A DNA stretch of 64,000 bases from a bacterium (GTDB lineage Bacteria > Patescibacteriota > Patescibacteriia > Patescibacteriales > UBA12075): assembly GCA_043820875.1 (NCBI GenBank), contig JBDRDI010000021.1, positions 91 to 64,090 on the forward strand, given 5' to 3'. Below are positions 44,704 to 61,783 of this stretch, one piece after another. The notes beneath the pieces are model-generated. The model did not search any database. It had not been told where the DNA came from and was given only the letters and a program-made list of their open reading frames with translations. The position numbers and the translations under genes were made by a program. Position 1 is the stretch's first letter; each line of letters opens with the position of its first letter.

Positions 44704-44704
44704 G

Positions 44705-44788: not shown

Positions 44789-44800
44789 TACCGATTATCC

Positions 44801-45754: not shown

Positions 45755-45828
45755 ATTTTACAAAAATTTATTTTAATAAATTAACTAACATAAATATACA
45801 ATAAAACAATCACACAATCAATAGAGTG

Positions 45829-47832
<2,004 letters not shown>

Positions 47833-47872
47833 GTTTTTTATTTTTAAAAATGTTTTGCGTCAAATTGTGAGT

Positions 47873-48397
47873 CTATCTGAAGAAAGCCGGCCTTAACTTT
47901 TTTACCGCTTTGCTTAACAAATAAAAAATTATAGCCACTCCTACTGAATTTATGGCCAAAAAAATAAATTCGGAAAAGAAAAAACTTTTATCCATAATAA
48001 ACGGGAAATCTTTTTTTTCAAGAAAAAATAACAAAAAAATCAACAAATAAACAAAAAATTTATAAATAAAGCCGGCAAAAAGACATAATGTTAAAAAAGA
48101 ATATAACGACCTGTTGGTGATAAAATTAACAAGCAAAAATTTTGTCAAAAGAATCATGGCAGAAAAAGAAACTATATATATGCCGAAGGGATAAAATGAA
48201 AAAAAATCAAAAAGCACGCCAACGCCAGCGGCCCACCATATTGCCAGCCAATCGTCTCTCAGGCCGAGCATAAAAATTAAAACAATAATAACTAGGCTGA
48301 AATTGCCGAATGGCCGAGGCAGGCTATTCAAAAATGAAAGCTGTAAGGCCGTCAAGGTTATTAAAAAAATTATGTTTAAAAATATTTTTCCGTACAT
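47873..48397 (-). CDS. mreD: rod shape-determining protein MreD
   Basis: 174-aa polytopic membrane protein immediately downstream of mreC. Confidence 0.65.
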   Translation of the reverse strand: MYGKIFLNIIFLITLTALQLSFLNSLPRPFGNFSLVIIVLIFMLGLRDDWLAIWWAAGVGVLFDFFSFYPFGIYIVSFSAMILLTKFLLVNFITNRSLYSFLTLCLFAGFIYKFFVYLLIFLLFFLEKKDFPFIMDKSFFFSEFIFLAINSVGVAIIFYLLSKAVKKLRPAFFR

Positions 48398-48408
48398 AAA
48401 ATTATAAA

Positions 48409-49233
48409 CTATCTTTCACCTGCCGGAAGAATAACCGACACAACAACCATATCTTCAAACTCAGACATCGGCTCAATTACAGCATCTTGCCACATTTCAT
48501 TATTTTCTTTATTTACCGCGGATATTTTTCCAATAATCAAACCGCGCGGAACAAAACTTTCCAATCCGGAAGTAACAACAATGTCGCTCGGATTTATTTC
48601 AGCGCTTTGAGGAATAAACCCCATTTTTATAGTCAAACCAAGATCTCCTTCGGTAATACCGTTTGTTTTTTCCGAACCGAAAATCGCAGCCGCCAATTTA
48701 CATCCGCTATTGCTCGTCAAATAAACTTTGGAAATTTTACCTTTCACTTCCATAATTTTTCCAACGATAACTCCTCGACCAGATACGACTCCCAGCCCCT
48801 CATACAAACCATCATCTGACCCCTTGTCAATTATTATTGTTTCTGTCCGACCCGACAAATCGATTCCGTCTCCTCTGGAGATGACATTACTCATGACATA
48901 TTGATATTGGCTTTGTGATAAAAAATTCAGGTGTTCACGCAAAATTTTGTTTTCATCTTCCAAAATTTTTAATCTGACATTCTCTTCCGTTAAGTCGGCA
49001 ACTTGAACTTCAAACTCTTTTAATTTTTCTTTTAAATTTTCTTCACTTGTTTTTTGACCGAAAGTCGCTCCGATATTTGAGCCCATGGAATAAAATCCGG
49101 AGAATATCGGATTCAAAACATTGGCCGCCATTTTTTCAACGGAAGTCAAAGCGCCAAGCTGGTATAAAAAAATGAGCAGCCCAATAACTGCTATCAAAAT
49201 AAATGTTTTCTGTTTGCCAACTTTTTTAAACAT
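48409..49233 (-). CDS. mreC: rod shape-determining protein MreC
   Basis: N-terminal TM, a coiled-coil, then a beta-rich C-terminal domain. Between mreB and mreD. Confidence 0.8.
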   Translation of the reverse strand: MFKKVGKQKTFILIAVIGLLIFLYQLGALTSVEKMAANVLNPIFSGFYSMGSNIGATFGQKTSEENLKEKLKEFEVQVADLTEENVRLKILEDENKILREHLNFLSQSQYQYVMSNVISRGDGIDLSGRTETIIIDKGSDDGLYEGLGVVSGRGVIVGKIMEVKGKISKVYLTSNSGCKLAAAIFGSEKTNGITEGDLGLTIKMGFIPQSAEINPSDIVVTSGLESFVPRGLIIGKISAVNKENNEMWQDAVIEPMSEFEDMVVVSVILPAGER

Positions 49234-49244
49234 AGGAACGGAGT

Positions 49245-50288
49245 CTAAAGTTCTTCAGCGCGGGGTGACAAAACTCTTTCCAGAAGTTCCGCGTCACTCA
49301 ACAAAATACCCGTGCCTCTTACCACACAAGTTAAAGGATCGTCAGCGACGTGTACTGGTATTTTTGTGGCCTGAGCAATTTCTTTGTCCAACCCGCGAAT
49401 CAATGCTCCTCCACCGGACAACACTATGCCATGTTCATAAATATCCGAGACCAATTCGGGCGGAGTAATTTCCAAAGTGGTTTTAATATTTTCAATTATT
49501 TGTTTTGTAGTCTTACTTATCGCTTCTCTGATTTGACTGTCAGAAATTGCCACGGCTCTTGGAAGTCCATTTATCAAATCCCGACCCTTTACTTCCATTT
49601 CTATCGGCTCTTTCAATGGCGCGGCGGAACCAATTTTCATTTTGATATTTTCAGAGACCTGTTCTCCGATTAATATATTAAATTCTTCCCTGACATATTG
49701 GATAATATTATTGTCCAACTCATTTCCGGCAAGACGCAAAGATTTCCAAGTTACGACTCCGCCCAAAGATATGACAGAAATTTCCGTGGTTCCTCCGCCA
49801 ATATCCACAATCATTGTGGCAGTAGGATCACTTACCGGCAAACGGGCGCCGATAGCGGCGGCCATTGATTCTTCAATTAAATAAACCTGGCGTGCGCCTG
49901 CTGACTTTGCCGCGTCTTCCACGGCTTTTTTTTCAACTTCTGTAATGTCCAGAGGTATCCCAATCACCACGCGCGGACGCGGAATCAAAGTAAAGCTTTC
50001 ACTGTGAACTTTATCAATAAAATATTTAAGCATTTTTTCCGTCACTTCAAAATCGGAAATAACACCGTCAACCAATGGCCTGATAGCTTGAATGTGACCA
50101 GGGGTTTTTCCAACCATTTTTCTCGCCTCTTCGCCCACGGCTAAAATTTCTTCGGTTCGCATATTCACTGCCACCACCGAAGGCTCATTAATAACTATGC
50201 CTTTGTCGCTGGTATAAACCAAGGTATTTTTTGTTCCAAGATCAATGCCGAGGTCTTTACTAAATTTTCCCAAAAATTTATTAAACAT
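49245..50288 (-). CDS. mreB: rod shape-determining protein MreB (actin homolog)
   Basis: DLGIDLGTKNTLVY and VVAVNMRTEEILAVGEEA, the actin-fold phosphate motifs. 347 aa. Confidence 0.95.
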   Translation of the reverse strand: MFNKFLGKFSKDLGIDLGTKNTLVYTSDKGIVINEPSVVAVNMRTEEILAVGEEARKMVGKTPGHIQAIRPLVDGVISDFEVTEKMLKYFIDKVHSESFTLIPRPRVVIGIPLDITEVEKKAVEDAAKSAGARQVYLIEESMAAAIGARLPVSDPTATMIVDIGGGTTEISVISLGGVVTWKSLRLAGNELDNNIIQYVREEFNILIGEQVSENIKMKIGSAAPLKEPIEMEVKGRDLINGLPRAVAISDSQIREAISKTTKQIIENIKTTLEITPPELVSDIYEHGIVLSGGGALIRGLDKEIAQATKIPVHVADDPLTCVVRGTGILLSDAELLERVLSPRAEEL

Positions 50289-50309
50289 AACTACGAAGTC
50301 GACTGATAT

Positions 50310-51539
50310 TTATTTGATTTTTTTGACTATATCTTTGAATTTAATTAATTCACATTCATTGCTGTTTCGCTTTTTTATTTCTACGGCGTTTTCTTTTATT
50401 GTTTTTTCGCTTACCACCACTCTCCACGGGCATCCAATTAAATCGGCATCAGCGAATTTTTGTCCAGCTGAAATATCGTCACGGTCGTCGTATAAAACTT
50501 CTACACCGTTATTTAACAACTCTTGATACATTTTTTCCGCTTCGTCATTCTGTTTAATAGAAATTAAATTTATCTTAAACGGCGCGACATTTTCCGGCCA
50601 AACAACTCCCCTTTCATCATTATTTATCTCTACGATTGTCCCTATTAATCTTTGCAAGCCAATGCCGAAACAACCCATAATCACATTTTTCTTCTCGCCG
50701 TTTTTATCCAAATATTTCAGATCAAACGGTTCTGAAAATTTTGCGCCCAATTTGAAAATATTTCCGACTTCTACGGCTTTTTCCTCACGCAATTTATTAC
50801 TCCCACATTCTGGGCATTTATTTTCTTGGTCTTTTATAATTTCTTTATTGATTGCTATTTGGCATTTGTCGCAAATATAAATCAAATCTTCACCTGCCTT
50901 AGTCAGGGTTTGAAATTCGTGCGAATATTTTGCGAAGCTTCCGCCGGAGGCATATGTTAAATATGTAATATCACCAATACCGCAACGATTAAAAATATTT
51001 TTATAAGCGGTAATAATTTTTTCATAATAACTATCCAAATCTTCCTGACTGGCATGAAAAGAATAAAAATCTTTCATCACAAATTCACGACCACGCATTA
51101 ATCCTGACTTGGCGCGCTTCTCGTTTCTGAATTTATTTTGAAACTGATAAACATATTTCGGCAAATCTTTATAGGAAGAAATAAATCTTTTGGCCAAAGG
51201 AGTGATTATTTCTTCATGAGTCGGTCCGATTGCAAATTCTTTATCATCAACTTTCAACTGAAAAAGATCATCCATGCCTGTCCATCGTCCGGTTTTTTCC
51301 CAATTTTCTTTGGGATGTAAACTGGGTAAAAATAATTCTTGTCCGCCAACCGCGTTCATTTCTTCCCTGATAATCTGTTCAACTTTTTTGTACACCTTAA
51401 ATCCAAGTGGCAACAATGTATAAACGCCAGCCATTACTTTATCCACAAATCCGCCCTGAATCAAAAGTTTTGCGTTTAAACTAACTTCGTCTTTCGGAAT
51501 CTGCTTGATTGTTTTTGTGAAATTTTGAGATTGCCGCAT
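50310..51539 (-). CDS. proS: prolyl-tRNA synthetase, short form lacking the editing insertion, with an inserted CxxC...CxxC zinc ribbon
   Basis: MRQSQNFTKT..P..EVSLNAKLLIQGGFV...GVYTLLPLG N-terminus, class II motifs, and the ICDKCQ...KCPECGS insert. 409 aa. Confidence 0.8.
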   Translation of the reverse strand: MRQSQNFTKTIKQIPKDEVSLNAKLLIQGGFVDKVMAGVYTLLPLGFKVYKKVEQIIREEMNAVGGQELFLPSLHPKENWEKTGRWTGMDDLFQLKVDDKEFAIGPTHEEIITPLAKRFISSYKDLPKYVYQFQNKFRNEKRAKSGLMRGREFVMKDFYSFHASQEDLDSYYEKIITAYKNIFNRCGIGDITYLTYASGGSFAKYSHEFQTLTKAGEDLIYICDKCQIAINKEIIKDQENKCPECGSNKLREEKAVEVGNIFKLGAKFSEPFDLKYLDKNGEKKNVIMGCFGIGLQRLIGTIVEINNDERGVVWPENVAPFKINLISIKQNDEAEKMYQELLNNGVEVLYDDRDDISAGQKFADADLIGCPWRVVVSEKTIKENAVEIKKRNSNECELIKFKDIVKKIK

Positions 51540-51663
51540 ACGTGCTATTTTTTTATTTATTTATATTATTATATTACATTAAAATATGAGAGTTTGTCAA
51601 AATACATAAAATATAAAAGAGGGAAAAATATTTTTCCCTCTTCATGCATTAACGGAAAATAAT

Positions 51664-52686
51664 CTATATTCTGCTCAATTTGTTGCAAACCGCCAGAATC
51701 GGACTGGCCAAAAAAATTGATGAATATGCTCCAAAAAAGACGCCGATTATCAGTGCCAGTACAAAACTTCTAATTGACTCTCCTCCAAAAATAAAAATAG
51801 AAAGCAAGCAAATCAACGTGGTCATAGAAGTATTGATTGATCGCCTAATTATTTGGTTAACACTAGTGTTGACTGTCTCTTCAAAACTGTCATCGCTTTT
51901 TGGCAAATTCTCTCTAATACGGTCAAACACAACGATTGTATCCATAACCGAATATCCTAGAACAGTCAAAATCGCGGCTACAAAAGGAGTGTTGATTTCT
52001 ATATTTAAAAATCTTCCAAGTACAGCAAAAATACCGATTGTTATCGTAACATCGTGGACCAAGGCGATAATAGCCGCCAAACCGTATTTCCAAGAAGCCA
52101 CCGGCTTGGAAACTTTTCTGAATGACCAAGCGATGAACAACATAATAAAAATCAAAACTACAATAATCGCGTTTAATGATTTTGTTTTTAATTCTTGGCC
52201 TATCGTCCCGCCAACCGAATCATATCTCAGTTCTTCAACAAGTTTATTTTCGAAATCAGTCTGTATTATTACCGCGGTTGTTGTTCCGCTCCCTGCCACA
52301 ATATCCAAGTCAATATCAACACTTTCAGTTCCTGTCGCGGTTGCTGATTCATCCTCCAAATTTTCTGTATTATTTTTTTGAACCAATTCTTCCAATTTTT
52401 CTAAAGTTTTTTGGTGTTTTTCTTGGCTTGTATTTTGAAAACGCAAAATCACGCCGTCTTCTCCCACTGACTGTACTATCAAGCTACCCAAGTCCAAATC
52501 ACGGACAGCTTCTTCAATATCGCTATTAGCCGGTCTATCCGTATTAAATTTTACTTCCAATAAACTACCTCCGGTAAAATCAATACCAAGTTTTAATCCC
52601 CAAACTAAAATAGCCAAAACGGAAACAGCGACAAGAAAACCGGAAAACGACAACCAGATTTTTCTTTTTTGAATTATATCAAACAT
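51664..52686 (-). CDS. secF: protein translocase subunit SecF
   Basis: LGIDFTGGS start of the periplasmic domain and six TM helices. Downstream of secD. Confidence 0.85.
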   Translation of the reverse strand: MFDIIQKRKIWLSFSGFLVAVSVLAILVWGLKLGIDFTGGSLLEVKFNTDRPANSDIEEAVRDLDLGSLIVQSVGEDGVILRFQNTSQEKHQKTLEKLEELVQKNNTENLEDESATATGTESVDIDLDIVAGSGTTTAVIIQTDFENKLVEELRYDSVGGTIGQELKTKSLNAIIVVLIFIMLFIAWSFRKVSKPVASWKYGLAAIIALVHDVTITIGIFAVLGRFLNIEINTPFVAAILTVLGYSVMDTIVVFDRIRENLPKSDDSFEETVNTSVNQIIRRSINTSMTTLICLLSIFIFGGESIRSFVLALIIGVFFGAYSSIFLASPILAVCNKLSRI

Positions 52687-52709
52687 ACTTATTAATTATT
52701 TTTTACTAA

Positions 52710-54770
52710 TTATTTCTTAATAGAAAAAAGCCACATTCTTTTTTCAAGCCATTTCCCAATAACAACCTTTAATAATATTTTTGTGATTATTATTGCTGAA
52801 AACATGGAAATGGAAACGCCCAGAAACAAAGTGACGGCAAATCCTTTTACTATGCTGGTTGAAAACATATATAAAATAACGCAAGTCAGCAAAGTGGAAA
52901 TATTACCATCGCGAATAGACGGCCAAGCGCGAGAAAAAGAATTTTCCAAAGCTTCATTCAACGGCATTCCGTCTTTTAATTCTTCTTTCAATCTTTCAAA
53001 TATCAAAACATTCGCGTCCACGGCCATACCTATTGATAAAATAAATCCGGCCACTCCCGACAAAGTAAGCGTTACCGGCCAAATTTTGAATATAGCCAAA
53101 ACTAAAACTCCGTAAATAGTCAGAGAAAAAACAGATACAATACCAGGCAACCGATAGAGCAAAACCATAAACAGCGCCACAAACATTATACCGATCGCAC
53201 CGGCGCGCAAACTGGCCAGAAGCGACGCTTTCCCCAAACTCGCGCCGACTGTTTGTTGACTTAATAAATAAATTGGCACAGGCAATGCTCCGGCATTAAG
53301 ATATTTTTTCAATTCCTTGGCTTCATTAACATTAAACTTTCCGGATATTACCGCCTCCCCGCCGCTAATTTTTTCATTTACTGTCGGCATGCTGATTGCG
53401 TTTCCATCCAAAAATATACCGACCACCTTACCAACATTACGCTCTGTGATATTCTCAAACAAATCCGCGCCTTCTTTGTCAAACTTTAAAACAACTTCCG
53501 GCGAACTGTCGTTCGGATTGAATTGGACCTCGGAACCTTCCAAATTTTTTCCGGTAAGCTCGGTTAATTTCCATTCTCTTTGGTCTCCCAATATGTCGCT
53601 CTCGCTTATTGTGGCAAAAAACATATGACTCAAGCGATATTCATCAATATCTCTTTCATCTTCTTTATAAATAATATGATAACCGAATTTTGTTTCCACA
53701 ACATAAGAAATGGTTCCCTTTGTTTGATTATCAAAAACCGTATCGGAAAAAGGTTCAACCATCATTTCTTGCGCAAACCATCCCAGCTCTCCGCCATTTG
53801 ACGCACTTCCCATATCCGTGGAATATTTTTCCGCTAAACTCGCAAAATTTTTCGGAGTAGCCTGATTTTTTATTTCTTTTATTTTTGCGTACGCCTCTTC
53901 TTTGCTGATTGCGTCCTGACATCCTTCAGCGTCTTGATAACAAACCAATATATGGCTTGCTTTTACTTCTTTTTCAACTTTTGTTTCATCAAAAGGATTA
54001 GTTTTTTTTCTTTTATCAGTCAATTTTAATATTTGGTAACCATTGGTTCTTTCTTCTATATCAGTTATGTCTCCCACTTTTAAATTTTTCACGCTTGTCG
54101 TCATTTGAAAACTGTCTTGAGCCGTAATCCAACCAAGGTCACCACCGATTTCTTTGGTTTTTTCGTCATCGCCGTAATCTCTGGCCAAAGAAGCGAAATC
54201 CCCGCCGGAAAGCAATTTGCCCAAAACTTCTTCTGCTTTTTTCTTTTTTTCATTATTATATTCTTCCATTTGTTCCGCTTCCTCGGCAGTAAGCTCGCGC
54301 TCGTTTTCAGCTTGTTCTTTAAATTCCAAAAGAGGAGTTTCACCAATCATTCTGATTGCTTCATTAACATCTTTTATTCCGGCCAATTCCACCACGATTC
54401 GATAATCTCCTCCAGAAGTGCTGGTTTGCACAATCGGTTCGCTGACTCCGTACGCGTTTACTCGGCGCTCTATAACGTCTCTCACGCCCTCCAACGCGCT
54501 TGATCTGTCTGCAGAGTCTATATTCGCCATATCGGCTTGATACACCATGTGACTGCCACCCAACAAATCAAGTCCCAAACGAAATGGAATCTCTTTTGTG
54601 TGTGGAAGCGTAAAATTTATTCTATCGCTGATATAATCCGCTGCCGTATTATATTTTTCTCCAACATCAATAAGAAGTCCGGCAACAACCAAAATAATTA
54701 TAAAAACAAAAGATCTCCAGACACGCCCGCGCTGGCTTGGTTGAAATATTTTTTCTATGATATTGGGCAT
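52710..54770 (-). CDS. secD: protein translocase subunit SecD carrying an inserted tandem parvulin-type PPIase module
   Basis: LGLDLLGGSHMVYQA and the C-terminal 6-TM domain identify SecD. Residues ~150-385 insert two PpiC/parvulin-like domains: ...GGDLGWIT...GYQILKL and ASHILV...GGELGWFAQ...GYHIIYK. Confidence 0.85.
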   Translation of the reverse strand: MPNIIEKIFQPSQRGRVWRSFVFIIILVVAGLLIDVGEKYNTAADYISDRINFTLPHTKEIPFRLGLDLLGGSHMVYQADMANIDSADRSSALEGVRDVIERRVNAYGVSEPIVQTSTSGGDYRIVVELAGIKDVNEAIRMIGETPLLEFKEQAENERELTAEEAEQMEEYNNEKKKKAEEVLGKLLSGGDFASLARDYGDDEKTKEIGGDLGWITAQDSFQMTTSVKNLKVGDITDIEERTNGYQILKLTDKRKKTNPFDETKVEKEVKASHILVCYQDAEGCQDAISKEEAYAKIKEIKNQATPKNFASLAEKYSTDMGSASNGGELGWFAQEMMVEPFSDTVFDNQTKGTISYVVETKFGYHIIYKEDERDIDEYRLSHMFFATISESDILGDQREWKLTELTGKNLEGSEVQFNPNDSSPEVVLKFDKEGADLFENITERNVGKVVGIFLDGNAISMPTVNEKISGGEAVISGKFNVNEAKELKKYLNAGALPVPIYLLSQQTVGASLGKASLLASLRAGAIGIMFVALFMVLLYRLPGIVSVFSLTIYGVLVLAIFKIWPVTLTLSGVAGFILSIGMAVDANVLIFERLKEELKDGMPLNEALENSFSRAWPSIRDGNISTLLTCVILYMFSTSIVKGFAVTLFLGVSISMFSAIIITKILLKVVIGKWLEKRMWLFSIKK

Positions 54771-54871
54771 AAATAAATTAAAAATAAAAATAGCTCACGG
54801 CTAATATAATTATATTAAACCAAAACAAAAAAAGGCGCAATATTGACAAAATGGAAAAAGATGTTTTAATT

Positions 54872-54912
54872 AAAAAAACCGCAAATTCCTCCTTTGTTTG
54901 CGGTTTTGTTTT
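54872..54912 (-). terminator. intrinsic terminator after the DHH gene
   Basis: aaaaccgcaaa-ttcctccttg-tttgcggtttt, followed on the minus strand by a T-run. Confidence 0.6.
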
Positions 54913-54937
54913 GAGATTCTTTTGAAAATTGCGCGAC

Positions 54938-55942
54938 TTACTCGCTATAGAAACGCCTTAACTCCGACGCTAACTTTTCTACAAATTGCGGAAAAGACGC
55001 GGCGTTTACTTTTCCACCCATATTCTTTACGCCGAATCCTCCCTTGCCATCTCTTCCTCCTCCACCCATGTGCTTGCAAAAAGAAACGCTGTCTATCTTG
55101 CTATCCGGATGCTTGAAAAATAACACGTTATTAGTTGGCGGACCAAAAGCGATTATATATCCGTCCGCGCATTCTCCCACGTCTCTTATAAATCCTTCCA
55201 CGGTTTCTTTGCTGTGAAACAACGAGCTCGCATAGCTGACAAGAAAACTAAGGTCAGAGAAAGAAAACCTTCTGACGTTGCGCAGGAGAGAATCAGATTC
55301 CTTTTGGATACTTTCCTTATAGCTTTCAACTAGCCGAGAATAAAAAATTGAACCGAACAATTCTTCTCTGGCCAATTCGCGAACAATCTGCTCCAGGGCT
55401 GATTTCATACCCGGATAGCTGTTTAAAAACGATATGGCATTCTGCAGTTTCTTCCCCTCTTCAAAACATGAATTGCTTGCGCCGGAAATTTCGCAAAGGC
55501 GATCTCCCTCCTCCGGATAATCACTGCACTGAGCGATGTCAGCCAACTTTTCTGCATAGCTGTCATCGCTAAGTGTATTTGATCTATGAATAAGCATGGC
55601 GGCACAGACACCTTTACCCACAGCGTAATTATAGTGAAATTCGTCAAGAGTTATTTGATTATCTATCGTATCTTGATGGTGGTCAATCCACATCACATAG
55701 CAAGGCGAGGAAGAATAAACCCGCCTGATAAATTCGGTCTTCGCAGATAAATCAGCAACAAAAATATTCCTGCCCTTAAGGCTTACCAAAAGATCAAACA
55801 TCTTTTCTTCTTCGCTGTGCGCGATTAATATTATTTTTGTTTTAGCACATTCTTCTTTTCCAATCTTTCGAAGAAGAAGGGCCGCGGAGATTATACCATC
55901 AACATCTTCTGCATGCGAGACGATAATATTGTCGTATTTCAC
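54938..55942 (-). CDS. DHH-family phosphoesterase (NrnA-like)
   Basis: DVDGIISAALL (motif I/II), WIDHHQ (DHH), and the C-terminal DHHA1 Gly-rich HMGGGGRDGKGG. GC content above the window average. Confidence 0.7.
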   Translation of the reverse strand: MKYDNIIVSHAEDVDGIISAALLLRKIGKEECAKTKIILIAHSEEEKMFDLLVSLKGRNIFVADLSAKTEFIRRVYSSSPCYVMWIDHHQDTIDNQITLDEFHYNYAVGKGVCAAMLIHRSNTLSDDSYAEKLADIAQCSDYPEEGDRLCEISGASNSCFEEGKKLQNAISFLNSYPGMKSALEQIVRELAREELFGSIFYSRLVESYKESIQKESDSLLRNVRRFSFSDLSFLVSYASSLFHSKETVEGFIRDVGECADGYIIAFGPPTNNVLFFKHPDSKIDSVSFCKHMGGGGRDGKGGFGVKNMGGKVNAASFPQFVEKLASELRRFYSE

Positions 55943-56000
55943 TTCTCAACCTCCCTTTGGTTGTTTTAAAGTACAGTAATAACTATTAGAATATTTTATA

Positions 56001-56630
56001 TTATATTAAATTTATGGTTTTGTCAAGTATATTTCTCACTTCTCTTGACCTTGTTTTTTTATCGCCTGAGATACGATAATATGGAATATTTAATTCCATC
56101 AAGAGATCGAGAATAACATCATCTATGTCTTTTTGAAATTTTGGATCAGTGGAACGCATGCCGTTGTCTTCAATCGGAAATTCACCGGTTGGCAAATATA
56201 TTACCAAATCATAATTAATATTTTTTTTAATCATTTCTCCGGCCACGCGCAAAAACTCTGGCTCGTGTTGAAATAAGAAATGAGCGTAAGCCAGAATATC
56301 AATCAAACATTTATCCGCCACCCACGGTTGAGGCGTTAAAAGTTCAAGTTCAATTTGTTTTGCAATAATCCACCATTCCGATTCAACGGAAGTTATATCG
56401 TTCACTGGAAATCCTTTTTGCAATGCCTCAATCGGCCCATCCGGCAGATATTTCCAACGAAGATGCTGACCGCTGATTGTTTTTGCCAAAACAGTCTTAT
56501 CTGGATTATTTATTCCGTCCACCAAAACACCGCCCACCCGAGTTGTATATTTCTCTCGCAAATATTTGTGCAACTCCTGCGCTATTGTTGTTTTACCGGT
56601 CCCATGAGAACCGAGGATAACGATTTTCAT
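56001..56630 (-). CDS. P-loop NTPase (AAA_28/NadR-C-like ATPase or kinase)
   Basis: Walker A ILGSHGTGKTT. 209 aa. Confidence 0.5.
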   Translation of the reverse strand: MKIVILGSHGTGKTTIAQELHKYLREKYTTRVGGVLVDGINNPDKTVLAKTISGQHLRWKYLPDGPIEALQKGFPVNDITSVESEWWIIAKQIELELLTPQPWVADKCLIDILAYAHFLFQHEPEFLRVAGEMIKKNINYDLVIYLPTGEFPIEDNGMRSTDPKFQKDIDDVILDLLMELNIPYYRISGDKKTRSREVRNILDKTINLI

Positions 56631-56687
56631 ATTTTTATTTTAAAAAATTATTTCCTACAACATTTTTTATATTTCTTGACCGTCTCG

Positions 56688-57113
56688 TTATTTATAAGCT
56701 TGTTTAACTTGTTCTTTGGTTAAATAAAGATAAGACAGGTCGGGATCGCAATAGTGCCTTCCTTTTTTTATTTTCCCATTTTGCATTTCTAAAATAATCA
56801 CCAACGGGGTTCTATATACTTTTTTCGTCTTCGGATCGGGATAGCTCTCAATCATTTCAATCATAACCACGCCGTCTCCTTCAGCTACGTGCTTTATGTC
56901 GTACTCACGATTTTTAATCAAGTATACTTCCTCTAACTTTTTCCGCAGATTCTTTCTTGTTCTCGGAAATATCTTCCCTTTTTTCGTTCTATACATCCAT
57001 GTCATTGAGTAATCATCTGCAAGTTTTTTTAAAGCCGCTTTAACATTGCCGCTTGTCTCATCCCGCAATATTTCCAAAACGGTCTTTATATTTTTACTTA
57101 ATTTTTTCCGCAT
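56688..57113 (-). CDS. hypothetical protein (possibly NTF2-like fold)
   Basis: 141 aa, no clear motif. Confidence 0.35.
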   Translation of the reverse strand: MRKKLSKNIKTVLEILRDETSGNVKAALKKLADDYSMTWMYRTKKGKIFPRTRKNLRKKLEEVYLIKNREYDIKHVAEGDGVVMIEMIESYPDPKTKKVYRTPLVIILEMQNGKIKKGRHYCDPDLSYLYLTKEQVKQAYK

Positions 57114-57132
57114 AAATTTACTTTATTAAATT

Positions 57133-59952
57133 TTATTTCCAGCAGCACTTCTTATACTTCTTCCCGCTCCCGCATGGACAAGGATCGTTACGGCCGATTT
57201 TGTTTCCACTTTCGTCTTTTAATTTTTCTTTGCTTATCATGTCCACAGTTCCGTTTCCGTTTTTTCCCCCTGTCTTGTATCCGGAAAAAGAAGAAGTGTT
57301 TTTTCCGGCAGTTTTGAGCGGAGCGCTGAATTCTTTGGCGCGATCCGCAAGGCTCGGTTCGGAAAAACCTTTTTCTGCATGGTCGTCCATCATGCCGACT
57401 TTATATATACTATAAACAATTTTCTTTTGAATCAAGCTATTCAGTTCACCATACAATCGGTATCCTTCCCTTTTATATTCCACCAGAGGGTCGCGCTGGC
57501 CGTAGCCTCGCAGGCCAATACCCTGTCGCAAGCTAGCCATCGCTTCCAAGTGCTCAATCCATAAATTATCAATAGAGCGGATCAAAACAGCTTTCTCAAC
57601 TTCATGCCAAGGAACACCTGCTTGCTTGGCGCTTATTTTTATTTTTTCATAAATTTCTTTTGCCAATCCTTCCAGATGCTCAATGATTTTCGTCCGCGCT
57701 GCGGCTTTGTCCAATTTATGAGTTTCGTTTTTGGCAAACTCGCTCAAGTCGCTTTTCAATTTCTTCTCCACCGGAAAGATCGTTGAAACCACTTCGTAAA
57801 TTTCTTCCAAATTCCAATCTTTCATGTAATCGGAAGCCGTATGAAAGCAAACCACTTGCTCAATTTCCTGTCGCACTTTTTCAAAAATAATTTCCGAGAG
57901 TTTTTGTTTATCCGGCGCTTTTTCCGCGATCTCCAATATATCTCTTCTTTGTTTATAAATTGCTTCGCGATGCTTGTTAATCACGTCATCATATTCCACT
58001 AAATGTTTTCTAATATCAAAATTATTTCCTTCAACTTTGGTCTGGGCGGATTCAATTGATTTGGAAATCATTTTATTTTCAATCGGCATATCTTCCGGAA
58101 CTTTCAAGCTGGACATGATTGACTTCATTCTGTCGCCACCAAAGACGCGCATTAAATCGTCTTCCATGGAAATATAAAATTGTGAAGAACCAGGGTCGCC
58201 TTGCCTTCCGGCGCGTCCGCGTAATTGGTTGTCAATGCGTCGCGCTTCGTGCCGTTCTGTACCAACCACATGCAAACCACCTGCGGCTAAAACTTTTTCC
58301 CTGCTTCTTTTCCAGTCAGCATGCTCTTCACTTTCTTCACCATTTTCCGATTCACTTGAAAAGTCGGGTTCTGTTCCTCCAAGCATAATATCCACACCCC
58401 TACCAGCCATATTGGTTGCGATAGTAATTGCTCCAAGCTTGCCGGCATCCGCGATGATTTTTGCTTCTTTCTCGTGGTTCTTTGCGTTCAAAAGTTGAGA
58501 CTTTAATCCTTCACGCTCCATAATTCCAACCAGCAATTCGTTTTTTTCTATGGAAATTGTGCCAATTAAAATCGGTTGTCCATTCTCATGTCTTTTTTTC
58601 ACGTCCGCAATAACAGCCTTGTATTTTCCTTCCTCTGAAGCGTAAATCAAATCATTCATGTTTTTTCTGACCATTGGTCGATGAGTGGGTATGGTCATGG
58701 TTTCCAAGCTATAAATTTTGGCAAACTCTTCGGCTTCTGTCACGGCCGTACCGGTCATACCGGAAAGTTTTTTATACATTCTAAAATAATTTTGAAAAGT
58801 AATAGTCGCGAGAGTTTCAGATTCCCTCTGAATTTTTACACCCTCCTTCGCTTCAATGGCCTGATGCAAGCCATCGCCATAGCGTCGTCCATGCATCAAA
58901 CGCCCTGTAAATTCATCAACAATAATCACTTCGCCTTCCTGCACAATATAATCCCGATCCAGTTTGAACAAAGCATGCGCTTTCAAGGCTTGCTCAATAT
59001 GGTGCACTTCTCTAATACCTCCGCTGGTATAAATATTTTCCACGCCTAAAGCTTTTTCCATTTTTGATACTCCTGACTCGGATAAAGTGGCAGCTTTCAT
59101 TTTTTCATCAACATTATAATCCACGTTTTCTTCCAACCGACTAACAAGTTCCGCGAATTTATAATATTTATCCGTGGACTCTTCAGCCGGCGCGGAAATA
59201 ATCAACGGGGTACGCGCTTCGTCAATCAAAATTGAGTCAACTTCATCCACAATCGCGTAATAAAGTTCTCTTTGCGACATACGCTCCAAATTCGGCACCA
59301 TATTATCGCGCAAATAATCAAATCCAAACTCATTATTTGTGCCATATAAAATATCGCATTCATAAGCTTCCCGGCGACTGATTTTTTTGAAACGTTGCAG
59401 GCGTTGGTCGTATTGCGAATCATCCGAATATTCCGGATCATAAATATACGCGGCGTCATGCACAATAACGCCGGTGGAAAGCCCTAAAAAATGATAGACC
59501 GGTGCCATCCAGCCCGCGCCGACGCGCGACAAATAATCATTAACGGTTACAAGGTGAACACTACGTCCGGCCAATGCGTTCAAATAAAGAGGCAGGGTGG
59601 CAACCAAAGTTTTTCCTTCTCCGGTTTTCATTTCAGCGATTTGTCCGCGATGCAGAACAATTCCGCCGATAAGTTGAACATCAAAATGCCGTTGGCCAAT
59701 GACGCGCCAAGCCGCTTCGCGAACGGCCGCAAAAGCTTCCGGCAATATTTCATCTGTTTTTTTATTTAACTCTTCCTGCACTTTATCTTTCAATAAATCT
59801 TGAAACCGAGCCGTTATTTTTTTAAATTCTTTATCATCTATTTTCTTGAATTTCGGCTCTATTTCATTGATTTTATTTATAATCGGCCTAATTTGCTTTA
59901 ATACTTTTTCGTTTGGATCTCCCAATATTTTAGTTAATAAACTCATAAACAA
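57133..59952 (-). CDS. secA: preprotein translocase ATPase SecA
   Basis: DEAD-like motor (GEGKTL, DEVDSILIDEARTPLIIS) and the C-terminal zinc finger CPCGSGKKYKKCC. 939 aa. Confidence 0.95.
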   Translation of the reverse strand: MFMSLLTKILGDPNEKVLKQIRPIINKINEIEPKFKKIDDKEFKKITARFQDLLKDKVQEELNKKTDEILPEAFAAVREAAWRVIGQRHFDVQLIGGIVLHRGQIAEMKTGEGKTLVATLPLYLNALAGRSVHLVTVNDYLSRVGAGWMAPVYHFLGLSTGVIVHDAAYIYDPEYSDDSQYDQRLQRFKKISRREAYECDILYGTNNEFGFDYLRDNMVPNLERMSQRELYYAIVDEVDSILIDEARTPLIISAPAEESTDKYYKFAELVSRLEENVDYNVDEKMKAATLSESGVSKMEKALGVENIYTSGGIREVHHIEQALKAHALFKLDRDYIVQEGEVIIVDEFTGRLMHGRRYGDGLHQAIEAKEGVKIQRESETLATITFQNYFRMYKKLSGMTGTAVTEAEEFAKIYSLETMTIPTHRPMVRKNMNDLIYASEEGKYKAVIADVKKRHENGQPILIGTISIEKNELLVGIMEREGLKSQLLNAKNHEKEAKIIADAGKLGAITIATNMAGRGVDIMLGGTEPDFSSESENGEESEEHADWKRSREKVLAAGGLHVVGTERHEARRIDNQLRGRAGRQGDPGSSQFYISMEDDLMRVFGGDRMKSIMSSLKVPEDMPIENKMISKSIESAQTKVEGNNFDIRKHLVEYDDVINKHREAIYKQRRDILEIAEKAPDKQKLSEIIFEKVRQEIEQVVCFHTASDYMKDWNLEEIYEVVSTIFPVEKKLKSDLSEFAKNETHKLDKAAARTKIIEHLEGLAKEIYEKIKISAKQAGVPWHEVEKAVLIRSIDNLWIEHLEAMASLRQGIGLRGYGQRDPLVEYKREGYRLYGELNSLIQKKIVYSIYKVGMMDDHAEKGFSEPSLADRAKEFSAPLKTAGKNTSSFSGYKTGGKNGNGTVDMISKEKLKDESGNKIGRNDPCPCGSGKKYKKCCWK

Positions 59953-60046
59953 AAATAGCAGTATTTTTCAGTACCACTTAATTAATAAATAACATATTTA
60001 TTATAATTTTTATTCACAAAAAAATCAAGTTTAAATTTTTTTGCGC

Positions 60047-60086
60047 AAAAAAAAGAGGGGTTCGTTTGTGAGACGATCCCCCTCAA
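60047..60086 (-). terminator. intrinsic terminator after the GC-rich gene
   Basis: gaggggttcg-tttgtgaga-cgatcccc(c)tc hairpin, followed on the minus strand by TTTTTTTT. Confidence 0.55.
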
Positions 60087-60212
60087 TTAGAATGTGCAGT
60101 TAATGCCAGCTCATAGGCCCTTTATTACTTTTTGTTTCTGGTTATGGGACGCTTGTCCCTGCCTGTGAATTGCTTTAGACTACAACTGTTTCTTTTTCTT
60201 TTTTTCCTTTTT

Positions 60213-61013
60213 CTATTTGCGGTTCTGACGAGGCTTCCCTTTGGCGTCATCGTCCTTCTTCTCAACGACCACGGTGGCGAGAGGCGTGCGAAAATCCTTC
60301 GCTACCTTCTTGTTGCGGGCGAGAAGGAGAAGCTTTGCCTCGGCATCCTCATTTCGTCTCGCTTCTTCCTCGGCCGCTTTTTCCTCACTTACCTGCCTGA
60401 ACGCCTTATAAGCAGCGTTCAAAACGATGCCGGCGGGGATATTCATTTCCCCGATAGGGATGAGACTTCTCTCATCCAGCTTTCTGTACGCGGAAACATC
60501 CACACGGCCTTTCCTTGCCTTTTTGAGAAAGTATTCGTAAGCGTAGGTACGCGCCCGCTTTTCCATTCTCTGGACTTCCTCGTCTAACTCATTCTGGACC
60601 ACCCATTCCACTCCTCGGTCGCGACCGATGATGCGGTAGCCGCGATCCTGCTTCTCGTAGCCAGCGAACACCACGCCGACGATCTCGGAAAAGTTCTGTC
60701 CCGCGAATTCGTCCGAACGAACGAACCCACAGATGATTTTCCTGATCTCCTGAGCGTCTTCGGGCAGGAGGTAGCGCGAGATTGCGGACTGCTCTTTCCG
60801 AGAAAGCTCGTGGAAGCACTTGGAACAAAGATGCTTCTTCTCTTCACACCCGCAGGCGACGCAGCACTTCAGCTCTCCTCCGCGCTCCTTCCGAAGCATG
60901 ATGTCGCGAAGGTAACCCTCAACGACGTCCTTACGGAAGCTATCGTGCTTCTTCTCGGTCGGCGGCTCGGTCTTGGTTTCGATTTGCAAAGCAGCGTTAC
61001 TATTTGTAGTCAT
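60213..61013 (-). CDS. hypothetical protein with Cys cluster (CCVACGCEEKKHLCSKCFHE), encoded on a GC-rich island
   Basis: 266-aa ORF at about 55% GC in about 33% GC surroundings. Lys/Glu/Arg-rich. A probable zinc-ribbon. Confidence 0.55.
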   Translation of the reverse strand: MTTNSNAALQIETKTEPPTEKKHDSFRKDVVEGYLRDIMLRKERGGELKCCVACGCEEKKHLCSKCFHELSRKEQSAISRYLLPEDAQEIRKIICGFVRSDEFAGQNFSEIVGVVFAGYEKQDRGYRIIGRDRGVEWVVQNELDEEVQRMEKRARTYAYEYFLKKARKGRVDVSAYRKLDERSLIPIGEMNIPAGIVLNAAYKAFRQVSEEKAAEEEARRNEDAEAKLLLLARNKKVAKDFRTPLATVVVEKKDDDAKGKPRQNRK

Positions 61014-61383
61014 CTCTACCTACCTTCTTTCTTCTAACAATTTTTTTGAAAACATTAAACTACTTGTCAAGGTACTACCTAAAAAACCCTCCGATACCAT
61101 TATCAGAGAGAATAATGAAGAGAAAATCACGGGCAGTGATCGAGTGTTGTTTAAAATTTTATTATAGACCCATCAAGCGGCCCGCTTTTTTAACTCTAAT
61201 TTATCTCGCTTATTGCAGATCACTCCGCATTAACAAAGAAAAAATTAGCCTCCTCTCCATTATTCTTTCCAATAATTTTTAAAAAACAAATTCAATATAT
61301 CAATATAGCATATTTTTAATTTTCTGTCAAGAGTACTTTCTTTTAATTATACTTTTTGTTTAATATCAGGGAAAATAAAATAA

Positions 61384-61416
61384 TAAAAAATCACCTCTTT
61401 TTCAAGAGATGATTTC
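61384..61416 (-). terminator. intrinsic terminator after hpf
   Basis: aaatcacctc-tttttcaag-agatgattt (one mismatch), followed on the minus strand by TTTATTATTTT. Confidence 0.5.
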
Positions 61417-61439
61417 ATATTTTCTTATTATTCCGATTA

Positions 61440-61763: not shown

Positions 61764-61783
61764 ATTGTTTATATTATCAATAA

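What the first reader, a model, noticed from the sequence alone, without database searches (positions are those of the whole stretch)
53615..54320. SecD with a tandem parvulin-type PPIase module inserted in its periplasmic head domain
SecD here is 686 aa. Between the conserved P1 segments (…GETPLLEF and REWKLTELTG…) lie ~235 residues forming two PpiC/parvulin-like domains (GGDLGWIT…GYQILKL, and ASHILV…GGELGWFAQ…GYHIIYK). This would tether a PrsA/SurA-like foldase directly to the Sec translocon motor, a fusion I do not recognise from characterised SecD proteins. It may compensate for the lack of separate periplasmic chaperones in a reduced genome.
Basis: partly seen in the sequence, partly recalled or inferred. 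Interest (0 to 1): 0.6.

Follow-up and report, generated by a model that had tools for sequence, protein, structure and literature searches.

The report
SecD with built-in nested parvulin foldases
This candidate-phyla bacterium's SecD, the proton-driven helper of the protein-export channel, carries two prolyl-isomerase (parvulin) domains nested inside its outward-facing arm; the design is conserved across many such lineages, seems undescribed in the literature, and hard-wires a chaperone-translocon partnership that other bacteria form non-covalently.

Summary
ORF 52710..54770 (-) encodes a 686-aa SecD with an intact motor and about 235 extra residues (aa ~153-387) between the P1 base/hinge strand (LLEFKE) and the P1 head. 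Pfam finds two parvulin domains there (E 3e-43). It is not an assembly artefact: an identical protein is in NCBI, synteny is conserved, and hundreds of clusters share the architecture. The "tandem" description needs refining. Covariation and AlphaFold models indicate a nested arrangement. Parvulin 1 is circularly permuted: its beta1 strand (aa 376-387) follows parvulin 2, and it lacks the catalytic histidines. Parvulin 2 (aa 267-375) is canonical, keeps the full catalytic set in ~98% of 283 homologues, and in this lineage carries a strictly co-occurring Cys pair. Variants with one, two or three parvulin units, in SecD or fused SecDF, occur in Moranbacteria, Falkowbacteria/Parcubacteria and Peregrinibacteria; Azambacteria have none. 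The most likely function is a translocon-tethered foldase/holdase riding on SecD's mobile head, a covalent version of the SurA-SecDF, PpiD-SecYEG and Mycoplasma "dome" associations. The "compensates for missing chaperones" idea is untested. I found no paper describing the fusion or a permuted parvulin. Verdict: a new variant of known kinds.

The parts
52710..54770 (-). secD coding sequence, 686 aa plus stop
   Evidence: ORF. TIGR01129 scores 366.7 bits against a cutoff of 244.4. An identical protein, P0001, is in an NCBI MAG.
54666..54722 (-). TM1 of SecD (aa ~17-35), which places the following P1 domain outside the cytoplasm
   Evidence: Hydrophobic stretch VWRSFVFIIILVVAGLLIDVG; helix 13-33 in the model; topology inferred by homology to SecDF structures.
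54309..54488 (-). P1 base, N-terminal part (Pfam SecD_1st, aa 95-154)
   Evidence: aligns to T. thermophilus SecDF 30-116.
54300..54332 (-). Strand S (aa 147-157, LLEFKEQAENE): the SecD base-to-head connecting strand and entry point of the insert
   Evidence: L148, E149, F150, K151 and E152 are invariant in 77 sequences. It couples with the first head strand (L147/I142/E144-L410) and not with the parvulin 1 sheet.
54003..54299 (-). Parvulin 1 body (aa 158-256: alpha1-alpha3, beta2, alpha4, beta3, beta4); catalytically degenerate
   Evidence: Rotamase_2 39.8 bits; secondary structure; the Pin1 H157-equivalent position 246 is E/Q/Y/F and never His in 283 sequences.
53973..54002 (-). Linker between parvulin 1 beta4 and parvulin 2 beta1 (aa 257-266), with conserved P259 and F260
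53646..53972 (-). Parvulin 2 (aa 267-375): canonical order beta1 to beta4, with H273, D319, L329, M337, F341, T360, H365 and the C277-x6-C284 pair
   Evidence: Rotamase_3 147 bits. Alignment to Pin1/Par10. Conservation. Covariation of beta1a with this unit's beta4 and helices. Foldseek TM 0.82-0.85 at 2.0-2.9 A to PrsA and SurA-P2 parvulins. Cys co-occurrence.
53610..53645 (-). Strand R (aa 376-387, EYRLSHMFFAT; family consensus VSHILI): the displaced beta1 strand of parvulin 1 and exit point of the insert
   Evidence: It covaries with parvulin 1 beta4, beta2 and alpha2 (G244-F384, Q246-H382, T251-R379, R254-E377, K255-D376, D211-R379, A196-M383). It is homologous to the conserved ...ASHILF... 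strand that follows beta4 in single-parvulin SecDs.
53277..53609 (-). Short helix (aa 388-397) and the P1 head subdomain (aa 398-498)
   Evidence: SecDF_P1_head 97.8 bits; aligns to Tt SecDF from residue 160; W400, T403, L405 and G407 are invariant.
52713..53264 (-). SecD membrane domain (aa 503-686) with the conserved proton-path Asp (D585 in AVDANV)
   Evidence: SecD_SecF_C. Alignment to the Tt SecDF motif AVDGNV. D585 is invariant in 77 sequences.
51664..52686 (-). secF (340 aa), the partner subunit, 23 nt downstream
   Evidence: TIGR00966 scores 280.9 bits against a cutoff of 160; Pfam.
57133..59952 (-). secA (939 aa) upstream on the same strand; context only
   Evidence: Pfam SecA domains; the same neighbourhood occurs in L012.

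Best explanation
The gene encodes a functional SecD, the proton-driven accessory motor of the Sec translocon. Its extracytoplasmic P1 domain carries a rigid two-parvulin module spliced between the base-to-head connecting strand and the head. The module is nested. The chain leaves SecD strand S and builds the body of parvulin 1 (alpha1 to beta4). It then runs through a complete canonical parvulin 2. It returns as strand R, which fills the central beta1 position of parvulin 1, and finally enters the P1 head. Parvulin 1 is therefore circularly permuted. It has lost the catalytic histidines and most likely acts as a structural adaptor and/or substrate-binding surface, like the inactive SurA P1 and PpiD parvulin domains. 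Parvulin 2 keeps every residue needed for prolyl isomerisation and, in this lineage, a disulfide-stapled beta1-alpha1 loop. The module is attached where the substrate-binding head swings about 100 degrees during the proton cycle. Unfolded secretory chains emerging from SecYEG and captured by the head would therefore meet a tethered foldase/holdase at once. The gene, domain identities, insertion point, conservation and distribution are shown. The nested topology is strongly supported but comes from covariation plus predicted structure. Isomerase/chaperone activity and coupling to the SecDF cycle are inferred.
For: The gene is intact: ORF; secD equivalog above cutoff; invariant proton-path Asp D585; adjacent secF. 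It is not an artefact: an identical NCBI protein on a 98-kb contig and 120/120 best hits share the Pfam architecture at 59-66% identity from NCBI, JGI, ENA and Logan assemblies; SecA..SecD-SecF-ProRS-MreB-MreC synteny recurs on a 1.27-Mb contig. Parvulin identity: Pfam E 3e-43; a collinear match to SurA P1+P2, E 4e-18; Foldseek TM 0.82-0.85 at 2.0-2.9 A to PrsA and SurA-P2 PPIase domains. Nested topology: mean-field DCA on 283 sequences (Meff 222) gives 9 top-70 pairs linking aa 267-277 to parvulin 2 elements against 1 to parvulin 1, and 8 pairs linking aa 376-387 to parvulin 1 elements against 1 to parvulin 2. These include A196-M383, the exact positional counterpart of A313-I274. Single-parvulin SecDs have the canonical ASHIL beta1 motif after beta4, at least 90% conserved, and it covaries with beta2, beta4 and alpha4. 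Only one non-strand residue separates 363-374 from 376-386, so the two are not a hairpin. The insert-only model has pLDDT 94.2 and pTM 0.82. Catalytic set: Pin1 H59/C113/M130/F134/T152/H157 correspond to H273/D319/M337/F341/T360/H365. The two His are kept in 278 and 281 of 283 sequences and an acidic residue in 257 of 283. Parvulin 1 has 0/283 His at 246 and 63/283 at 382. Disulfide: C277 and C284 are both present in 132 sequences, both absent in 151, never alone, and always 6 residues apart. Functional precedent: SurA binds the E. coli holo-translocon, and all AlphaFold models put SurA's P1/P2 parvulin domains on the SecDF P1 head (PMC9987972). PrsA-like PPIase lipoproteins form a complex with SecDF/SecYEG in M. 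pneumoniae, with substrate density contacting the active PPIase domain. The P1 head binds substrate and rotates about 100 degrees with proton flow.
Against: No activity was or could be measured. In SurA and PrsA the chaperone function is largely separable from PPIase activity (my knowledge of that literature, not tested here), so conserved catalytic residues do not prove that isomerisation is the selected function. The full-length model has pTM 0.40, so the position of the module relative to the head, base, SecF P4 and SecYEG is unknown. Meff is modest: 222 for the two-parvulin set and 77 for the single-parvulin set. Some Patescibacteria (Azambacteria) have plain SecD, so the module is not indispensable for the clade.
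Confidence: 0.7

Rival explanations
1. Holdase or adaptor only. The parvulin folds serve as a non-catalytic substrate-binding or spacer platform that enlarges the P1 head. Prolyl isomerisation is irrelevant, and the conserved 'catalytic' residues are kept for fold stability or peptide binding.
For: Parvulin 1 has clearly lost the His pair in all lineages yet is retained, so a non-catalytic role exists for at least one unit. The closest sequence relative, SurA, has an inactive P1 domain. PpiD's parvulin domain also appears among the fold hits (8zht). From my own knowledge, chaperone activity of SurA and PrsA is largely independent of PPIase activity, and the parvulin dual-His motif has a structural role.
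Against: Parvulin 2 retains the entire catalytic and proline-pocket set (H273, D/E319, L329, M337, F341, T360, H365) across two lineages at only 25-35% overall identity. Single-parvulin SecDs keep both histidines at 90% or more despite the permutation. Meanwhile parvulin 1 drifted freely at the same positions. That contrast is what is expected if catalysis is under selection in one unit only.
Confidence: 0.2
2. Docking module. The parvulin pair mainly recruits another envelope machine or structure (for example YidC, signal peptidase, sortase, a protease, the cell wall or S-layer, or the host-cell surface in an episymbiont) rather than acting on translocating substrates.
For: The module is rigid (pTM 0.82) and exposed. 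A free-standing TM + P1-head + parvulin paralogue sits directly downstream of a trypsin-like protease gene in three contigs, hinting at partnerships with quality-control factors. In E. coli, SecDF periplasmic domains are proposed to contact other machines.
Against: There is no direct evidence for any partner. The conserved surface features found are those of the parvulin active site. The functional precedents for parvulins at the translocon all concern nascent secretory chains.
Confidence: 0.07
3. Artefact. A separate ppiC/prsA gene was fused to secD by mis-assembly, a frameshift or a gene-calling error.
For: None found. The sequence comes from a metagenome-assembled genome, where chimeras do occur.
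Against: The insert lies in the middle of the SecD P1 domain, with SecD sequence in frame on both sides. It shares its first strand with SecD and its last strand completes parvulin 1. The architecture recurs in hundreds of 90% clusters and at least 80 of the 150 listed 50%-identity representatives, from independent assemblies, including contigs of 0.5-1.4 Mb. Synteny is conserved.
Confidence: 0.01

Closest known systems
SecDF of Thermus thermophilus / Deinococcus radiodurans (PDB 3AQP, 5YHF, 5XAM/5XAN) and E. coli SecD (5MG3_D)
   Same: It shares the family and domain order: TM1, P1 base, connecting strand LEF(R/K), P1 head, six-helix membrane domain with the conserved proton-path Asp (D585 here), and a partner SecF.
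   Different: In all three solved proteins only ~38-55 residues separate the LEFR strand from the head. Here ~250 residues forming two parvulin domains occupy that position. E. coli's extra P1 residues lie elsewhere, in the base.
E. coli SurA (PDB 1M5Y), tandem parvulin domains P1 (inactive) and P2 (active)
   Same: It is the best solved sequence relative of the insert. One collinear alignment runs through P1 and P2 (E 4e-18). The pattern is the same: first unit degenerate, second catalytic. SurA's parvulin domains are predicted to dock on the SecDF P1 head, and SurA binds the holo-translocon (PMC9987972).
   Different: The insert has no SurA N-/C-terminal chaperone core. The NCBIfam SurA model scores 86 bits against a cutoff of 394. 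The first unit lacks an N-terminal beta1 and is completed by a strand after the second unit. The two-domain geometry does not superpose (rmsd ~12 A over 225 columns). The attachment is covalent, not a transient interaction. SurA serves outer-membrane proteins, which these organisms are not expected to have.
PrsA foldase lipoproteins of Firmicutes (PDB 4WO7, 2JZV, 6XD8)
   Same: Both are extracytoplasmic parvulin foldases acting at the membrane-wall interface of monoderm bacteria. The PPIase domains superpose on parvulin 2 at TM 0.83-0.85 with 34-39% identity. One single-parvulin SecD is even auto-annotated 'foldase protein PrsA precursor'.
   Different: PrsA is a separate lipoprotein whose parvulin is inserted in an NC chaperone domain. 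Here the host is SecD itself. NCBIfam PrsA models score 81-89 bits against cutoffs of 343-361.
PpiD-YfgM at the E. coli SecYEG translocon (PDB 8ZHT; PMC9643414)
   Same: PpiD is a membrane-anchored protein containing a parvulin fold, stationed at the exit of the Sec channel to receive translocating chains. A non-catalytic parvulin is used as part of a chaperone.
   Different: PpiD is a separate protein anchored by its own TM helix and binds SecY/YfgM. It has one inactive parvulin plus chaperone domains. The NCBIfam PpiD-type model scores 72 bits against a cutoff of 493.
Mycoplasma pneumoniae 'dome' translocation-folding complex (Mdp444/436/489 with SecDF-SecYEG-SecA; bioRxiv 10.1101/2025.04.25.650208 and 10.1101/2024.09.05.611430)
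   Same: It occurs in a genome-reduced monoderm bacterium and physically couples PrsA-like parvulin domains (one active, the others degenerate) to SecDF and the Sec channel. Substrate density contacts the active PPIase domain.
   Different: It is a non-covalent assembly of large lipoproteins forming a chamber. Here the parvulins are part of the SecD polypeptide, and no trigger-factor/SurA-type helical chaperone domain is present.

Membership tests
SecD (TIGR01129 / Pfam SecD_1st + SecDF_P1_head + SecD_SecF_C) | Score above the curated family thresholds | tested here: met
   TIGR01129 scores 366.7 bits against a cutoff of 244.4. Pfam: SecD_1st 64.4 (cutoff 27), P1_head 97.8 (27), SecD_SecF_C 49.4 (20.5), Sec_GG 20.8 (20.3).
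SecD (TIGR01129 / Pfam SecD_1st + SecDF_P1_head + SecD_SecF_C) | Conserved membrane-domain Asp of the proton path, and a partner SecF | tested here: met
   D585 in AVDANV aligns with the Tt SecDF motif AVDGNV and is invariant in 77 homologues. secF lies 23 nt downstream; TIGR00966 scores 280.9 against a cutoff of 160.
SecD (TIGR01129 / Pfam SecD_1st + SecDF_P1_head + SecD_SecF_C) | PMF-dependent stimulation of protein export | not testable with these tools
   This needs genetics or biochemistry.
Parvulin PPIase (Pfam PF00639/PF13616): parvulin 2, aa 267-375 | Family score above threshold and the parvulin fold in canonical strand order | tested here: met
   Rotamase_3 scores 147.3 bits (cutoff 22.5) and Rotamase 130.2 (21.7). 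Foldseek gives TM 0.82-0.85 over the full length of PrsA and SurA-P2 domains. beta1a covaries with this unit's beta4 and helices.
Parvulin PPIase (Pfam PF00639/PF13616): parvulin 2, aa 267-375 | Catalytic and proline-pocket residues (Pin1 H59, C113/Asp, L122, M130, F134, T152, H157) | tested here: met
   H273, D319, L329, M337, F341, T360 and H365 by alignment to verified Pin1/Par10 sequences. Conservation.
Parvulin PPIase (Pfam PF00639/PF13616): parvulin 2, aa 267-375 | Measured cis-trans isomerase activity | not testable with these tools
   This needs an enzyme assay.
Parvulin fold: parvulin 1, aa 158-256 + 376-387 | Family score above threshold | tested here: met
   Rotamase_2 scores 39.8 bits against a cutoff of 27, covering profile positions 26-120 only, so beta1 is not covered.
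Parvulin fold: parvulin 1, aa 158-256 + 376-387 | Canonical sequence order beta1-alpha1-alpha2-alpha3-beta2-alpha4-beta3-beta4 | tested here: not met
   No beta1 precedes alpha1. The strand with the beta1 motif (consensus VSHILI) follows parvulin 2 and covaries with beta4, beta2 and alpha2 of parvulin 1. The same displaced strand is seen in single-parvulin SecDs.
Parvulin fold: parvulin 1, aa 158-256 + 376-387 | Catalytic histidine pair | tested here: not met
   Position 246 is His in 0 of 283 sequences. Position 382 is His in 63 of 283, and only in SecD-only forms.
SurA | Family score, and an N-terminal plus C-terminal chaperone core flanking the parvulins | tested here: not met
   NF008038 scores 86.4 bits against a cutoff of 394. 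No SurA_N-type domain was found by Pfam. The flanks are SecD.
PrsA | Family score, a lipoprotein, and an NC chaperone domain hosting one parvulin | tested here: not met
   NF002827, NF002846 and NF002824 score 81-89 bits against cutoffs of 343-361. The host is a polytopic SecD.
PpiD | Family score, and a single N-terminal TM anchor plus chaperone domains | tested here: not met
   NF008054 scores 71.7 bits against a cutoff of 493.

The most novel reading that the evidence does not exclude
The nested parvulin module is mechanically coupled to the proton-driven swing of the SecD P1 head, making SecD an 'active foldase'. In each proton cycle the head would capture the emerging chain, present it to the tethered catalytic parvulin, and release it. 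Export, prolyl isomerisation and hand-off would then be timed by one motor. On this reading the permuted outer parvulin is not a relic but the lever that transmits head motion. The CPR fusions would also be a natural Rosetta-stone proof that the SecDF head is the general docking site for parvulin chaperones (SurA, PrsA, PpiD) in all bacteria.
Probability: 0.2. Interest if true: 0.8.

Novelty: new variant of a known kind. Interest (0 to 1): 0.6.

Why it matters
How unfolded proteins leaving SecYEG are handed to folding factors, and whether SecDF recruits those factors, is an open question. In E. coli it is currently addressed with low-resolution EM and AlphaFold docking (SurA on the SecDF head). 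In Mycoplasma it is addressed with in-cell tomography.

A conserved natural fusion of parvulins to exactly that part of SecD is independent evolutionary evidence for the partnership. It also gives a compact, single-polypeptide system to test it, through a structure of the P1 domain, PPIase and holdase assays, and chimeras in B. subtilis or E. coli.

It further provides what appears to be the first example of a circularly permuted parvulin, with a second parvulin nested inside it (and seemingly a third layer in some lineages). That is of interest for protein-fold evolution and domain-insertion engineering.

For CPR biology, it flags a lineage-variable trait of the export machinery with 0, 1, 2 or 3 units. 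It also warns that 'PrsA' calls in CPR gene inventories may partly be SecD itself.

Tried and rejected
1. Canonical tandem with SecD strand S as beta1 of parvulin 1. Rejected: the extension of S (KEQAENE) is polar, S shows no covariation with the parvulin 1 sheet, and S is largely unstructured in the confident insert-only model while R stays a strand.

2. Double-permuted tandem (body 1 + aa 267-276; body 2 + R). Rejected: covariation assigns 267-277 to parvulin 2 and 376-387 to parvulin 1. Only one non-strand residue lies between 363-374 and 376-386. H273 and H365 are co-invariant. Full-length sequential superposition of canonical parvulins is possible.

3. The LEFR-to-head junction as a general insertion hot spot, explaining E. 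coli's long SecD. Rejected: in E. coli the junction is only ~38 residues and the extra residues lie in the base.

4. Assembly artefact. Rejected.

An alignment query would have been better.

6. Cluster look-ups gave few organism names.

8. Literature searches for the fusion or for a permuted parvulin found nothing. This is absence in the searchable open-access library, not proof of absence.

9. An HMM search of the six-frame window for a second parvulin or P1-head domain found none.

10. The NJ tree of the SecD core shows the classes cluster but are not monophyletic. It has no bootstrap, so I draw no conclusion on the number of gains and losses.
Full report
OBSERVATION. The window holds an uninterrupted 686-aa ORF at 52710..54770 on the minus strand, followed 23 nt downstream by a 340-aa ORF. 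NCBIfam identifies them as SecD (TIGR01129, 366.7 bits against a cutoff of 244.4) and SecF (TIGR00966, 280.9 against 160). Pfam places SecD_1st at aa 95-154, Rotamase_2 at 167-264, Rotamase/Rotamase_3 at 260-370 (two stretches, E 3e-43), SecDF_P1_head at 403-498 and the SecD/SecF membrane domain at 503-669. Against T. thermophilus SecDF, residues 60-151 align with Tt 30-116 (ending ...LEFR) and residues 405 onwards align with Tt 160 onwards (LTGADL...). About 45 Thermus residues are therefore replaced by about 250.

NOT AN ARTEFACT. An identical protein is in NCBI from a MAG, on a 98-kb contig. All 120 best database hits (59-66% identity, ~690 aa, from NCBI, JGI, ENA and Logan assemblies, some on contigs of 0.3-1.3 Mb) carry the same Pfam architecture. 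A homologue on a 1.27-Mb contig has the same neighbourhood as the window: SecA ... SecD-SecF-ProRS-MreB-MreC. SecD sequence flanks the insert in frame on both sides. The motor looks intact: the proton-path Asp (D585 in AVDANV, aligned to Tt AVDGNV) is invariant in 77 homologues.

ANATOMY: NESTED, NOT TANDEM. The full-length AlphaFold model is confident over the insert (pLDDT 85-93). Its secondary structure shows two sets of alpha1-alpha2-alpha3-beta2-alpha4-beta3-beta4, one beta1-like strand between them (267-276, KASHILVCY) and another after the second set (376-386). Three topologies were possible.
- The first clue came from single-parvulin SecDs found in the exhaustive search. They read SecD strand LEFKE, then alpha1...beta4 (FGYHII), then ~12 residues, then ...ASHILF..., then the head. 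The canonical parvulin beta1 motif therefore follows beta4, and both the GWHIIK and HIL motifs are at least 90% conserved in 139 such proteins.
- In the window protein the corresponding strand is aa 376-387 (family consensus V-S-H-I-L-I).
- Mean-field DCA on 283 two-parvulin inserts (Meff 222) then separated the models. Among the 70 strongest pairs, aa 267-277 couples 9 times with parvulin 2 elements (E268-R373, K270-D371, S272-E370 with beta4; I274-A313, V276-K296, A271-F341 with helices) and once with parvulin 1.
- In the same analysis, aa 376-387 couples 8 times with parvulin 1 elements (G244-F384, Q246-H382, T251-R379, R254-E377, K255-D376 with beta4; D211-R379 with beta2; A196-M383 with alpha2) and once with parvulin 2.
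- A196-M383 is the exact positional counterpart of A313-I274: the FASLA helix against the residue after the beta1 His.
- SecD strand S (147-157) couples with the first head strand, not with the parvulin sheet.
- The same analysis on single-parvulin forms (Meff 77) couples the displaced strand with beta2, beta4, alpha1, alpha2 and alpha4.
- Only one non-strand residue separates 363-374 from 376-386 in both models, which excludes a hairpin.
- The insert-only model has pLDDT 94.2 and pTM 0.82, so it is a rigid unit, and R remains a strand although S is mostly unstructured.
- Canonical parvulins (S. aureus and Bacillus PrsA, Salmonella SurA P2, Pin1) superpose over their full length at 2.0-2.9 A with TM 0.75-0.85. 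Whole SurA does not superpose (rmsd ~12 A).
The chain path is therefore: SecD strand S, parvulin 1 body (158-256), complete parvulin 2 (267-375), strand R (376-387) filling the beta1 slot of parvulin 1, a short helix, then the P1 head. Parvulin 1 is circularly permuted, opened at the beta1-alpha1 loop, and it hosts parvulin 2.

ACTIVE-SITE STATUS. Pin1 H59, C113, L122, M130, F134, T152 and H157 correspond to H273, D319 (one-residue-longer loop, as in SurA P2), L329, M337, F341, T360 and H365 in parvulin 2. Across 283 sequences from two lineages, H273 is kept in 278, H365 in 281, an acidic residue at 319 in 257, and T/S360 in 280. H273, L275, G327, F341, G363 and H365 are invariant in a 97-sequence alignment reaching 25% identity. 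In parvulin 1, position 246 is never His (E/Q/S/A or Y/F) and position 382 is His in only 63 of 283. In the SecD-only lineage the beta1-alpha1 loop of parvulin 2 carries C277-x6-C284. The two cysteines are both present in 132 sequences, both absent in 151 and never alone, always six residues apart. That is the signature of a disulfide in an extracytoplasmic domain.

DISTRIBUTION. An exhaustive HMMER search of 1.84 billion 50%-identity representatives, using the P1 region with its insert as query, found 224 representatives at E<=1e-30. Of the best 150, local domain mapping gave 42 with two parvulins, 24 with one, 14 with longer inserts, 37 with none and 33 fragments.

Class | Length (aa) | Named sources | Calls
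SecD + 2 parvulins | ~690 | Falkowbacteria, Parcubacteria, 'Patescibacteria group' | 6, 29
Fused SecDF + 2 parvulins | ~1000-1120 | Peregrinibacteria, Abawacabacteria | 30
SecD + 1 permuted, catalytically complete parvulin | ~560-590 | Moranbacteria / Parcubacteria group (one annotated 'foldase protein PrsA precursor'; some from the 2012 ACD metagenomes) | 57
Plain SecD, no insert | 471-476 | Azambacteria | 56

NCBI taxonomy puts Falkow-, Moran- and Azambacteria in the Parcubacteria group and Peregrinibacteria in a separate candidate phylum. The longer class has three parvulin-like bodies, two degenerate and one catalytic. At least in P0199 there are two hydrophobic return strands after the catalytic unit, as expected for one more nesting layer. 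This was only partly followed up. On an NJ tree of the SecD core (insert removed), the classes cluster much better than chance (20 state changes against 31-39 for shuffled labels) but are not monophyletic. The number of units seems labile, but the tree has no support values.

MECHANISM (INFERRED). By the established SecDF model, the P1 head binds the emerging chain and swings about 100 degrees between the F and I forms, driven by proton flow through the membrane domain (reviews PMC6028853 and PMC8669966). The module is spliced into the strand that leads from the base into the head. A catalytically complete parvulin, held on a degenerate parvulin 'socket', is therefore stationed where unfolded chains are captured and released. 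I propose a tethered foldase/holdase: parvulin 2 isomerises Xaa-Pro bonds of exported proteins, and parvulin 1 provides rigidity and possibly a peptide-binding surface. Shown: gene, domains, insertion point, conservation pattern. Strongly supported: the nested topology. Inferred: activity, substrate contact and coupling to the motor.

COMPARISON WITH WHAT IS KNOWN. It is a member of SecD and contains members of the parvulin fold. It is not a member of SurA, PrsA or PpiD: scores are far below the curated cutoffs and the chaperone core domains are missing. Functionally it resembles three known arrangements.
- SurA-holo-translocon binding, where all AlphaFold models put SurA's P1 and P2 parvulin domains on the SecDF P1 head (PMC9987972). 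The CPR fusion makes exactly this pairing covalent.
- PpiD-YfgM at SecYEG (PMC9643414).
- The M. pneumoniae 'dome' complex, in which PrsA-like lipoproteins (one active, the others degenerate) sit on SecDF/SecYEG and substrate density touches the active PPIase domain.
None of these papers mentions a SecD-parvulin fusion.

The domain call and the tethered-foldase idea hold. 'Tandem' and 'in the head' need the refinements above. 'Periplasmic' is loose for organisms predicted to be Gram-positive-like. The compensation hypothesis is not supported by anything I could test. A CPR survey reports PrsA in all CPR classes, although some of those calls may be SecD itself. Free-standing TM + P1-head + parvulin proteins exist in relatives. 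The window holds no other parvulin, but it covers only 64 kb.

NOVELTY AND SCORE. The proteins have been in public databases for years, annotated simply as SecD, with Pfam domains assigned automatically. Six full-text searches over 8 million papers found no description of the fusion, and none combining 'circular permutation' with 'parvulin'. I therefore rate it a new variant of known kinds: a Sec accessory motor plus translocon-associated parvulin chaperones. The new elements are the covalent fusion and the nested, permuted parvulin. Interest is 0.6. It is not revolutionary, but a Sec specialist would want to know it. It gives independent evolutionary support to a currently model-based interaction and a compact system to test it.

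LIMITS. No coordinates were available, so topology rests on DCA and secondary-structure strings. The full-length model has pTM 0.40, so the module's orientation is unknown. Organism names cover only part of the hits. Two structure libraries were unavailable. No function was measured.

Noticed in passing
Related loci L009 3947-4807, L010 3529-4389, L011 2707-3567; proteins P0192, P0216, P0222, P0234: These are free-standing ~280-286-aa proteins made of an N-terminal TM helix, a SecDF-P1-head-like domain and a canonical parvulin, with the same ASHLLxC-x6-C motif as the window's parvulin 2. They have no SecD membrane domain, and the order is head then parvulin, the reverse of SecD. P0222 is a complete ORF 17 nt downstream of a 298-aa trypsin-like (Trypsin_2) protease gene in three independent contigs. 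This suggests the P1 head and the parvulin work as a unit even away from the motor, possibly with a quality-control protease.
   Followed up: partly
Proteins P0162, P0182, P0189, P0193, P0199, P0205, P0251 (775-830 aa): A 'longer insert' class of SecD has three parvulin-like bodies (two degenerate, one catalytic). In P0199 there are two hydrophobic return strands (LYSLQKIVVQK and LTYERIFYST) after the catalytic unit, consistent with a third nesting layer.
   Followed up: partly
window 50310..51539 (-): The prolyl-tRNA synthetase ORF is only 409 aa, with tRNA-synt_2b and HGTP_anticodon domains. The syntenic ProRS next to the homologous SecD in L012 (9601-11031) is 476 aa and also has the ProRS-C_1 domain. 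The window enzyme lacks that C-terminal domain.
   Followed up: no
window 54938..57113 (-): Three small genes lie between secD and secA: a DHH-like protein (334 aa, below the Pfam cutoff), an AAA_28 P-loop protein (209 aa) and a weak SnoaL-like protein (141 aa). In the relative L012 the interval instead holds a nitroreductase and a Bac_transf gene, so this spacer is variable.
   Followed up: no
window 8304..8433 (-): A ribosomal protein L10 leader (RF00557, 56.6 bits against a gathering score of 44) lies upstream of the presumed rplJ-rplL genes. It is the only Rfam hit in the window at gathering threshold.
   Followed up: no
window 1..64000: Nearly all long ORFs are on the minus strand, and GC skew is negative in every 2-kb bin (-0.08 to -0.25). 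This fits a single replichore with strong strand bias. GC is about 0.35-0.42, apart from 0.48 in the first 2 kb.
   Followed up: no
Protein P0471 and paper PMC9166423: One single-parvulin SecD is auto-annotated 'foldase protein PrsA precursor'. Gene-inventory statements that CPR classes encode PrsA may therefore partly reflect the parvulin module inside SecD rather than a separate PrsA.
   Followed up: no
window 51664..52686 (-), SecF aa ~95-140: The SecF P4 region contains a low-complexity acidic/Thr-rich stretch (NTENLEDESATATGTESVDIDLDIVAGSGTTTAV), which makes this SecF (340 aa) longer than the 279-position TIGR00966 model.
   Followed up: no
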